DNA of 63,987 nucleotides, counting the filler, from Collodictyon triciliatum (lineage: Eukaryota): the NCBI GenBank assembly GCA_043381765.1. It is 7 parts of 7 records of this genome, joined end to end, with 100 filler letters (N's around TTAATTAATTAA, not from the genome) between each part and the next. Parts side by side here need not be neighbours in the genome. Positions count along the whole stretch, not along the records: positions 1 to 9,264 come from JBHJMP010000802.1; 6 more parts are not named here. One strand, written 5' to 3'. This document shows positions 7,431 to 7,566 of the stretch, piece by piece. Every line of letters starts with the position of its first letter. Position 1 is the stretch's first letter. The translations under genes and the position numbers were made by a program. The notes under the pieces are model-generated. The model was given only the letters and a program-made list of their open reading frames with translations, did not search any database and had not been told where the DNA came from.

Positions 7431-7492
7431 ATACTAGGAGTATACCACCGAAAGATTGGTTAATCTGTTCCGCTAGTATCCAAGGTCTCCCT

Positions 7493-7525
<33 letters not shown>

Positions 7526-7566
7526 TACTATGGTCGTGTAATAATAAACGCTGCCAGGAAAGACCT
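7431..7566 (-). ncRNA. Candidate Fanzor omegaRNA scaffold
   Basis: Overlaps the Fanzor 3' end. Outer stem 7558-7566/7483-7491 (9 bp, 2 G-U), inner stem 7539-7548/7521-7530 (10 bp, 1 G-U), and a second hairpin 7473-7479/7431-7437 (7 bp Watson-Crick). The G-U pairs form only on the Fanzor sense strand. Confidence 0.55.

What the first reader, a model, noticed from the sequence alone, without database searches (positions are those of the whole stretch)
7431..7566. Strand-specific multi-stem RNA at the Fanzor 3' end (candidate omegaRNA)
Seen, on the minus strand: AGGUCUUUC pairs with GGGAGACCU and encloses UUUAUUAUUA-CACGACCA-UAGUAAUAAA. A second domain AUACUAG...CUAGUAU follows, holding either AGAUU-AACC-AAUCU or ACC(A)AUC-UUUC-GGUGGU. 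Three G-U pairs work only on the Fanzor sense strand, and the ORF stop (7528-7530) lies inside the inner stem. Known: TnpB/Fanzor guide scaffolds overlap or follow the ORF end and abut the element's right end. Inference: this is the omegaRNA scaffold, and its pairing has survived despite decay of the ORF.
Basis: partly seen in the sequence, partly recalled or inferred. Interest (0 to 1): 0.8.

Follow-up and report, generated by a model that had tools for sequence, protein, structure and literature searches.

The report
Decayed guide-RNA remnant behind dead Fanzor
The stems lie where a Fanzor nuclease gene normally encodes its guide-RNA scaffold, but this gene copy is dead and the RNA region looks like an eroded remnant, not a preserved working guide RNA.

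Summary
The stems exist at the stated coordinates on the minus strand, and the ORF stop (7528-7530) lies in the inner stem. Folding is only modestly better than chance. Sense-strand z is -2.2 to -2.5, antisense about 0, and 12 of 220 random windows of this DNA fold as well.

The ORF is a single Fanzor1 pseudogene with about 10 in-frame stops, at least 2 frameshifts and a truncated 5' end.

Giant-virus relatives (37-47% protein identity) carry a roughly 146-nt 3' element with strong covariation that ends at the element's right end. A covariance model of it finds 16 of 18 and 77 of 80 related loci. It does not find the window: only the inner hairpin aligns, at 5.5 bits, E 0.65.

Sister copies in two organisms become unlike the window at 7550. 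Sixteen of the next 30 bases agree, and they keep 5 of the 10 inner pairs.

Verdict: the place is right, probably ωRNA-derived DNA, but preserved pairing is not shown. This is an ordinary decayed member of a known kind.

The parts
7537..9236 (-). Decayed, 5'-truncated Fanzor1 gene. It is the only copy in the window. Pieces lie in two reading frames, with about 10 in-frame stops and at least 2 frameshifts. The first ~77 residues are missing.
   Evidence: Three-frame reading. tblastn of P0001 gives 47% identity over 488 aa and 52% over 94 aa, with stops inside conserved blocks. A 102-aa piece hits Parasitella Fanzor1 in PDB entry 9cf0 at E 1.2e-3. The closest protein, P0001, hits Guillardia, Parasitella and Spizellomyces Fanzor1 structures at E 2e-28 to 4e-23.
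7528..7530 (-). TAG stop of the last ORF piece, followed in frame by TAA TAA.
7558..7566 (-).
   Evidence: Protein-anchored alignment places it at the relatives' RPxxF codons, upstream of their stem B.
7521..7548 (-). Inner AT-only hairpin: 10 bp with an 8-nt loop CACGACCA. It is the positional counterpart of the relatives' 7-bp hairpin A.
   Evidence: Local covariance-model alignment to model positions 17-48: 5.5 bits, E 0.65. Sister copies share the loop core but only 16 of 30 bases overall.
7495..7523 (-). 29-nt poly(A) run inside the outer helix. In the ORF's frame it reads as 9 Lys codons. It sits where relatives have GAAAAAG.
   Evidence: Homopolymer runs of similar length are frequent in the window.
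7483..7491 (-). In frame it reads G-R-P, resembling the relatives' EKVRPS and P0010's GERPIL.
7431..7479 (-). Second domain: a 7-bp stem ATACTAG/CTAGTAT enclosing a small hairpin. It shows no significant likeness to the relatives' 3' half.
   Evidence: One small contig of a freshwater metagenome (X2) covers 7449-7491 and then continues unlike the window.
7401..7430 (-). Downstream stretch ending in GGTTG plus A10. By eye it faintly resembles the relatives' terminal motif. This is not statistically supported, so the right end is undefined.
   Evidence: and comparison. nhmmer and the covariance model give nothing here.

Best explanation
The 136 bases are most likely the eroded remains of the DNA that once encoded the guide-RNA (ωRNA) scaffold of a Fanzor1 element.

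In intact relatives the scaffold starts inside the last ~25 codons of the nuclease gene and folds into an enclosing stem plus a 7-bp hairpin. It then continues through one or two optional hairpins and a long closing helix, and stops exactly at the element's right end. The flanking DNA beyond that point supplies the guide.

Here the gene is a dead, 5'-truncated pseudogene and the RNA region has drifted with it. Many changes are GC-to-AT transitions, and an A-rich spacer appears to have expanded into a 29-nt homopolymer. A hairpin still sits at the ancestral hairpin position, now AT-only and in a new register. The conserved 3' half (the GTTGATTTTAC box, the closing helix and the GGTGTAAA end) is no longer recognisable.

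In the alignments obtained, the outer stem does not lie at the homologous position. Together with the second domain it gives a fold that about one in twenty random windows of this AT-rich DNA match. I expect no working ωRNA from this copy.

Shown: the anatomy, the decay of the gene, the relatives' structured element, and the failure of its model on the window. Inferred: descent of this stretch from an ωRNA region, and loss of function.
For: 1. Position. The stretch is on the sense strand at the 3' end of a Fanzor1 ORF.

2. Relatives have an element at this place. By pattern, 69 of 80 metagenome loci end in a shared motif, after which the 25-nt flanks printed for them differ except between duplicate loci. 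By the model R1, 16 of 18 loci match (the 2 misses end before the element), and 77 of 80 giant-virus loci match at E <= 1e-5 (the 3 misses have almost no downstream DNA).

3. That element is structured. 91.1% of cells are paired, against 46-54% when partners are slid. 19 of 34 pairs change on both sides, and 0 of 500 shuffles reach any of the five measures.

4. Published work places Fanzor ωRNA/fRNA at the 3' end, overlapping or following the ORF and abutting the right end (PMC10432273 and PMC10530073, passages read).

5. The inner hairpin aligns to the relatives' hairpin A.

6. Decay. There are about 10 in-frame stops and at least 2 frameshifts. R1 gives no hit at the site in the whole window, and only 5.5 bits, E 0.65, with filters off. 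nhmmer gives none at E <= 100. Yet R1 scores 66-75 bits in clades (part of its own training set) that are 45-49% identical in protein to the majority clade. The window's closest protein, P0001, is 37-46% identical to the relatives compared.

7. Sister copies. They are 80-99% alike over 7550-9200 and then agree at only 16 of 30 bases. 8 of the 14 differences are G/C in the sisters against A/T in the window (my hand alignment).

8. The fold signal is only in the top ~5% of the genomic background.
Against: 1. Sense-strand folding is better than shuffles (z -2.2 to -2.5) and clearly strand-biased, which a purely drifting sequence need not show.

2. All five positions that are mismatched in the sister consensus are paired in the window's inner hairpin, and one pair changed on both sides. 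This could reflect selection for a hairpin between subfamilies.

3. R1 was built from a giant-virus clade. Published Fanzor1 structures show that ωRNA beyond the first stem-loop varies greatly between species (PMC11423790, passages). Failure of R1 therefore does not prove decay.

4. Only 30 bases of the sister copies' 3' sequence could be seen, so conservation of the outer stem and of domain 2 was never really tested.

5. An alternative alignment makes the outer stem homologous to the relatives' stem B (RSF = SSF, and GGRPW = EKVRPS). I could not exclude it.
Confidence: 0.55

Rival explanations
1. It is a still-functional 'ghost' ωRNA. The dead copy keeps a lineage-specific scaffold, reshaped relative to the giant-virus clade, that intact Fanzor1 proteins from sister copies load in trans. 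This would resemble the ORF-less ghost Spu-1 loci of Spizellomyces.
For: The position and strand are right. Folding is sense-specific. A hairpin is kept at the ancestral hairpin position with changed letters. The family is multicopy in two organisms, with 271 and 313 contigs, 18 and 15 of them >= 99% alike, so intact partners may exist. Ghost ωRNA loci are documented (PMC10432273, passages). The scaffold beyond SL1 is reported as poorly constrained (PMC11423790).
Against: There is no significant model or profile match. A 29-nt homopolymer splits the main helix. Sister copies stop resembling the window exactly where the scaffold should begin, whereas working ωRNA regions are usually at least as conserved as the ORF. 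The fold z-score is matched by 5.5% of random windows. No right end or guide could be defined.
Confidence: 0.15
2. The A run marks the true 3' end of this copy, either as a retroposed or LINE-borne Fanzor copy or through some other breakpoint. On this reading 7431-7494 is unrelated flank, and both the outer stem and the second domain are coincidences.
For: AATAAA merges directly into 29 A right after the stop. The copy is 5'-truncated at 9236, next to another homopolymer and an assembly gap. Cover by sister contigs ends before the A run. Some Fanzor1 families are reported to associate with LINEs (PMC10530073, passage). A 9-bp stem with G-U allowed is expected about once by chance in 136 nt (my estimate).
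Against: Homopolymer A/T runs of about 30 nt are frequent in this window and need no retroposition. The ORF frame continues through the run (27 A after the stops) into G-G-R-P-W-I-L, which resembles the relatives' EKVRPS and P0010's GERPIL. A metagenome contig covers 7449-7491 beyond the run. The hexamer has no spacing from the run, which is unusual for a real polyadenylation site.
Confidence: 0.15

Closest known systems
Fanzor1 ωRNA / fRNA (OMEGA guide-RNA scaffolds of SpuFz1, GtFz1, PpFz1; Saito 2023, Jiang 2023, Xu 2024)
   Same: It lies on the sense strand at the 3' end of a Fanzor1 ORF, with the stop codon inside the predicted structure. A first hairpin sits near the 5' end. The fold has several stems.
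   Different: No right end, guide or inverted repeat could be defined. No RNA was observed. The partner gene is dead. A 29-nt A run interrupts the fold. The first hairpin has 10 AT pairs, against the 7 bp reported for SL1 (PMC11423790). Conservation among copies is not shown.
The ~146-nt 3' element of the giant-virus Fanzor1 clade found here (model R1; loci L001-L160)
   Same: The position relative to the RDxNS catalytic motif is the same. A hairpin sits at the hairpin-A position. An A-rich spacer follows it. An AGACC box encodes R-P.
   Different: R1 scores 5.5 bits in the window against 56-166 bits in the loci. The GTTGATTTTAC box, hairpin E, the 11-13-bp closing helix and the AARGGTGTAAA end are not detectable. 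In the protein-anchored alignment the outer stem is displaced from stem B.
Ghost Spu-1 elements (ωRNA loci without a Fanzor ORF in Spizellomyces punctatus)
   Same: A guide-RNA region would persist without a working nuclease gene in cis.
   Different: Ghost loci are conserved, flanked by 30-nt inverted repeats and experimentally active (PMC10432273). None of this is shown here.

Membership tests
Fanzor1 protein (TnpB-like RuvC nuclease), decayed copy | Sequence homology to solved Fanzor1 proteins, plus the RuvC motifs GVDxG, NE(F/Y)xTS, a CxxC...CxxC zinc finger and RDxNS | tested here: met
   A 102-aa piece hits 9cf0 at E 1.2e-3. The closest protein, P0001, hits GtFz1, PpFz1 and SpuFz1 at E 2e-28 to 4e-23. 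The motifs are visible in the pieces. The copy is broken by about 10 stops and at least 2 frameshifts. The motif names are recalled knowledge.
Fanzor/TnpB ωRNA scaffold | Encoded on the sense strand, overlapping or directly following the 3' end of the nuclease ORF | tested here: met
   Definition from PMC10432273 and PMC10530073.
Fanzor/TnpB ωRNA scaffold | Ends at the transposon right end, followed by a variable guide taken from the flank | tested here: inconclusive
   The window holds no second copy. No inverted repeats other than homopolymers were found. No whole genome is held. Sister contigs show only 30 bases beyond 7550.
Fanzor/TnpB ωRNA scaffold | Sequence and pairing conserved among copies, with compensatory changes | tested here: inconclusive
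   Only the inner hairpin could be compared. 16 of 30 bases are shared with the sister consensus, and 5 of 10 pairs are kept in the same register. The outer stem and domain 2 were not seen in sister copies.
Fanzor/TnpB ωRNA scaffold | Folding clearly better than chance on the sense strand | tested here: inconclusive
   z -2.2 to -2.5 on the sense strand and about 0 on the antisense strand. But 12 of 220 random windows fold as well.
Fanzor/TnpB ωRNA scaffold | A discrete RNA species bound by the nuclease | not testable with these tools
   No run on record as RNA holds the stretch. The two runs laid as 'RNA?' are guesses and are kept as contigs.
Fanzor1 ωRNA (solved complexes) | First stem-loop SL1 of seven base pairs near the 5' end | tested here: inconclusive
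   The relatives' hairpin A has 7 pairs. The window's hairpin at that place has 10 AT-rich pairs. The feature comes from PMC11423790. Equating hairpin A with SL1 is my inference.
Giant-virus Fanzor1 3' element (model R1) | Significant covariance-model match at the ORF's 3' end | tested here: not met
   No hit at the site in the whole window. With filters off on 7000-8000 the best is 5.5 bits, E 0.65, hairpin A only. Positive controls: 16 of 18 and 77 of 80 loci.
Giant-virus Fanzor1 3' element (model R1) | Conserved boxes GTTGATTTTAC and AAATGnnnAARGGTGTAAW at the end | tested here: not met
   nhmmer profiles of the whole family and of the nearest clade give no hit in 7300-7700 at E <= 100. Only a faint resemblance by eye at 7411-7430.
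Any Rfam family | Match reaching the gathering score | tested here: not met
   Three chance-level matches in 6500-10000, all far below gathering.

The most novel reading that the evidence does not exclude
This would be a freshwater eukaryote's multicopy Fanzor1 family whose ωRNA has been remodelled away from the giant-virus scaffold. It would keep only the first hairpin, through compensatory changes. Dead, truncated copies such as this one would persist as trans-acting 'ghost' guide loci whose flanking DNA still programmes intact family members.
Probability: 0.12. Interest if true: 0.5.

Novelty: new member of a known kind. Interest (0 to 1): 0.2.

Why it matters
If the stems were a working guide scaffold, the locus would be a second example of 'ghost' ωRNAs outliving their nuclease gene. 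It would also give a scaffold for a Fanzor1 lineage with no studied member. As it stands it is a routine annotation point: the 3' flank of a Fanzor pseudogene.

The more useful by-product is the comparison set. A large giant-virus Fanzor1 clade carries a ~146-nt 3' element with strong covariation support, a sharp right end, and no match reaching Rfam's gathering score. That element gives a concrete yardstick, model R1, for judging other candidate Fanzor ωRNAs in this scan.

Tried and rejected
- Whole-genome search: no genome is held for this window.
- Pfam on the six ORF pieces: nothing above cut-off.
- Rfam on 6500-10000: only chance-level matches.
- Self-BLAST of 6500-10000 against the window: only homopolymer and microsatellite matches, no second copy.
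- P0001 in viral contigs: 36 pattern matches, none confirmed.
I replaced it with the 4-protein alignment A2.
- Sequencing runs: no RNA holder listed. All 13 holders have small shares, 0.05-0.12.
- Reads laid: no cover over 7300-7427, and only one small X2 contig at 7449-7491. The parts of sister contigs beyond 7550 are shown for 30 letters only.
- Covariance model R1 and nhmmer on the window: no significant hit at the site. Weak nhmmer hits at 58893-58942 and 59205-59257 (E 0.056 and 0.22) were not followed up.
- Inverted-repeat search for element ends in 6400-11000: only homopolymers and N-gap artefacts.
- Homologues of the 170-aa ORF 6646-7158: none.
- Homologues of the 74-aa C-terminal piece among short proteins: none.
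- Exact 22-nt pattern from domain 2 in viral contigs: 0 matches.
- My early by-eye reading that the outer stem equals the relatives' stem B, and that TTAAAGTTAAGGTTGAAAA equals their terminal motif, was not upheld. The protein-anchored alignment and the profile searches speak against it.
- Supplementary files of the Fanzor papers were not opened. They may hold ωRNA sequences of GtFz1, PpFz1 and others that could be compared.

Full report
**What is in the sequence.**
- Outer stem: AGGTCTTTC (7566-7558) with GGGAGACCT (7491-7483), 9 pairs, two of them G-U.
- Inner hairpin: TTTATTATTA (7548-7539) with TAGTAATAAA (7530-7521), 10 pairs, one G-U, loop CACGACCA.
- Second domain: ATACTAG (7479-7473) with CTAGTAT (7437-7431), enclosing AGATT-AACC-AATCT.
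- The TAG at 7530-7528 ends the last ORF piece and is part of the inner stem.

It follows TAG TAA TAA and sits inside the outer helix.

**Is it more than chance?** The evidence is modest.
- RNAfold of 7431-7566 gives -27.0 kcal/mol on the minus strand, z -2.38, with 4 of 200 shuffles as good. My own 300 shuffles give z -2.21, 10 of 300.
- The plus strand gives z -0.37 and -0.57.
- Extending to 7400-7580 gives z -2.49 on minus (1 of 300) and +0.21 on plus. Each domain alone gives about -1.9.
- In 110 random 136-nt windows of the same DNA, taken on both strands, 12 of 220 reach z <= -2.2. In 20 of 110 windows the two strands differ by >= 1.6.

So the fold is strand-biased, but it lies only in about the top 5% of this AT-rich, repeat-rich sequence.

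**The gene.** tblastn with the closest protein, P0001 (648 aa), finds one copy in the window, at 9236-7537 on the minus strand. Identity is 47% over 488 aa and 52% over 94 aa.
- It carries about 10 in-frame stops inside conserved blocks, for example NEY*TSK where relatives have NEFRTSK.
- The RuvC-I block (VGVDAGKFNLVYMVD) lies in another frame, so there are at least two frameshifts.
- It starts at P0001 residue 78, next to a homopolymer and an N gap.
- A 102-aa piece hits Parasitella Fanzor1 at E 1.2e-3. P0001 hits the solved Guillardia, Parasitella and Spizellomyces Fanzor1 proteins at E 2e-28 to 4e-23. 499 representative proteins match the piece at E <= 1e-3.

It is a Fanzor1 pseudogene, so 'decay of the ORF' is confirmed.

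**What relatives have at this place.** A scan of metagenome contigs with a four-protein alignment returned 80 loci with Fanzor1 ORFs, 36-47% identical to P0001. Most are intact; some are cut by contig ends. The same family lies on giant-virus contigs of IMG/VR, many of them labelled GVMAG.
- In 69 of 80 loci a shared motif, AAATGnnnAARGGTGTAAW, follows the ORF at varying distance. In one locus it lies inside the ORF. After it, the 25-nt flanks printed for these loci differ except between duplicate loci, so this is the element's right end.
- An alignment of 61 distinct copies shows several helices: a stem B enclosing a 7-bp hairpin A, an optional stem C, an optional hairpin D, a hairpin E, and an 11-13-bp helix F that pairs the GTTGATTTTAC-adjacent strand with the terminal AARGGTGT.
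- For my stated structure, 91.1% of cells pair, against 46-54% when partners are slid. 19 of 34 pairs change on both sides, and 0 of 500 shuffles reach any of the five measures. Hairpin E is mis-registered by MAFFT and scores poorly (63.9%).
- The covariance model R1 (146 positions, 34 pairs) finds the element in 16 of 18 loci. These include 10 loci left out of the training alignment (56-145 bits). The two misses end before the element.
- R1 also finds it in 77 of 80 viral loci at E <= 1e-5. The three misses have almost no downstream DNA.
- No Rfam family reaches its gathering score on one such element (L009); the best match has 28 bits against a cut-off of 140.

This fits what is published for Fanzor ωRNA/fRNA: a 3' location, overlap with the ORF end, and abutment to the right end (PMC10432273 and PMC10530073, passages read). 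Calling the element an ωRNA is my inference; no RNA was seen.

**Does the window share it?** Formally, no.
- R1 over the whole window gives seven matches at E 0.45-10, none of them in 7300-7700.
- With filters off on 7000-8000 the best match is 7548-7516 on the minus strand: 5.5 bits, E 0.65. It aligns only the inner hairpin and the following As to model positions 17-48, which is hairpin A.
- nhmmer profiles of the whole family and of the nearest clade give no hit there even at E <= 100.
- This failure carries weight. Two minority clades, which were part of R1's training set, score 66-75 bits although their proteins are only 45-49% identical to the majority clade. P0001 is 44% identical to L001 and 39% to L009.
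- It is not decisive, because Fanzor1 ωRNAs are reported to vary greatly beyond the first stem-loop (PMC11423790, passages).

**Which window bases correspond to which helix?** A protein-anchored alignment of the C-terminal tails, with X at the stops, puts the window's L-A-A-F-I against the relatives' S-S-F-T / G-L-T-F-T, and its E-Q-I-N-Q-S against their E-K-V-G-Q-S.
- On that alignment, and on the R1 local alignment, the inner hairpin starts within about 4 nt of hairpin A.
- The outer stem's 5' arm lies 6-14 nt upstream of the stem-B position, and the homologous stem-B bases (AGCGT / AACCA) no longer pair.
- A rival alignment makes the outer stem homologous to stem B. It equates R-S-F with S-S-F, and G-G-R-P-W with E-K-V-R-P-S or with P0010's G-E-R-P-I-L. 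I could not exclude it.
- The ORF frame runs through the A run (27 A after the stops) into GGRPW. This suggests that the ancestral ORF read on, and that the run grew from the relatives' A-rich GAAAAAG spacer.

**Sister copies.** No genome is held, so the only view came from laying contigs of four runs.
- Two small runs of two organisms (coded A and B; 'RNA?' is only a guess) hold 271 and 313 contigs that are 80-99+% like 7550-9200. The family is therefore multicopy there.
- Two lake or freshwater metagenomes hold a few contigs, some identical to the window over 151-234 nt.
- Cover stops at 7550. Three contigs of X8 run on with a 30-letter consensus. Reverse-complemented by hand, it aligns without gaps to window 7549-7520 at 16 of 30 positions. 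The core TACACGA is identical.
- 8 of the 14 differences are G/C in the sisters against A/T in the window.
It could form a different 5-bp hairpin around the same loop.
- So the likeness falls from >= 80% to about 53% exactly where the scaffold should start. This is the opposite of what a conserved guide scaffold shows. Yet a hairpin of some kind persists.
- The outer stem's 3' arm and domain 2 were not visible in sister copies. One X2 contig covers 7449-7491 and then departs.

**Other readings.**
- The A run after AATAAA, the 5' truncation and the reported LINE association of some Fanzor1 families allow a retrocopy or breakpoint reading, in which 7431-7494 is flank.
- Against that reading: homopolymers of this size are frequent here, GGRPWIL continues in frame, and X2 covers sequence beyond the run.
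- A ghost-ωRNA reading is not excluded but has no positive comparative support.

**Verdict.** The place is right, and the DNA very probably descends from an ωRNA-coding region. The specific claim that a multi-stem scaffold has been preserved is not supported by any test I could run. This is an ordinary decayed member of a known kind, of low interest.

The giant-virus Fanzor1 3' element is recorded as a by-product.

Corrections to my own notes: note 1 gave the A run as 27 nt (it is 29), note 2 gave 67 of 80 loci with the end motif (it is 69), and note 3 gave 17 of 30 identities (a recount gives 16).

Noticed in passing
L001-L160 (e.g. L009:4030-4173): A large Fanzor1 clade on giant-virus (many GVMAG) and aquatic metagenome contigs carries a ~146-nt 3' element. 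It has five to six helices with strong covariation support and a sharp right end at ...AARGGTGTAA(A/T). It starts inside the last codons of the ORF. No Rfam family reaches its gathering score on L009.
   Followed up: yes
window 7550-9200 versus runs X5, X8, X1, X2: The Fanzor family is highly multicopy in two coded organisms, with 271 and 313 contigs at 80-99+% likeness. Pieces identical to the window occur in lake and freshwater metagenomes, so the source organism is probably a freshwater eukaryote.
   Followed up: partly
window 7520-7549 versus the sister consensus: 8 of the 14 differences are G/C in sister copies against A/T in the window, including a run of four adjacent changes. This looks like deamination-type or hypermutation-like decay.
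   Followed up: partly
window 9265-9364, 19580-19679, 26588-26687, 33652-33751, 53466-53565, 60619-60718: A recurring pattern of 44 N, 12 bases and 44 N. At least four of the six (those near 9265, 19580, 26588 and 33652) have long poly(A)/poly(T) runs close by. It may be an assembly or masking artefact tied to a repeat.
   Followed up: no
window 4430-4480, 9235-9264, 10865-10900, 19541-19750, 26507-26587, 30309-30416, 33774-33833, 42382-42480, 50415-50446, 58197-58346, 60581-60614, 62671-62736: A/T homopolymer runs and A/T-rich runs of about 30 nt or more are frequent in the window. The A run inside the finding is therefore not unusual for this genome.
   Followed up: partly
window 6646-7158 (-): A 170-aa ORF lies directly downstream of the Fanzor remnant on the same strand. 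It has no Pfam match and no homologue in the word-based protein search.
   Followed up: partly
window 5225-5717 (-) and 11574-12043 (+): Minisatellite-like repeats translate as FYCFLLLSIA... and CLIYCLIY... units.
   Followed up: no
window 58893-58942 and 59205-59257 (-): Weak nhmmer matches (E 0.056 and 0.22) to the 5' third of the giant-virus element profile. tblastn found no Fanzor ORF there.
   Followed up: no
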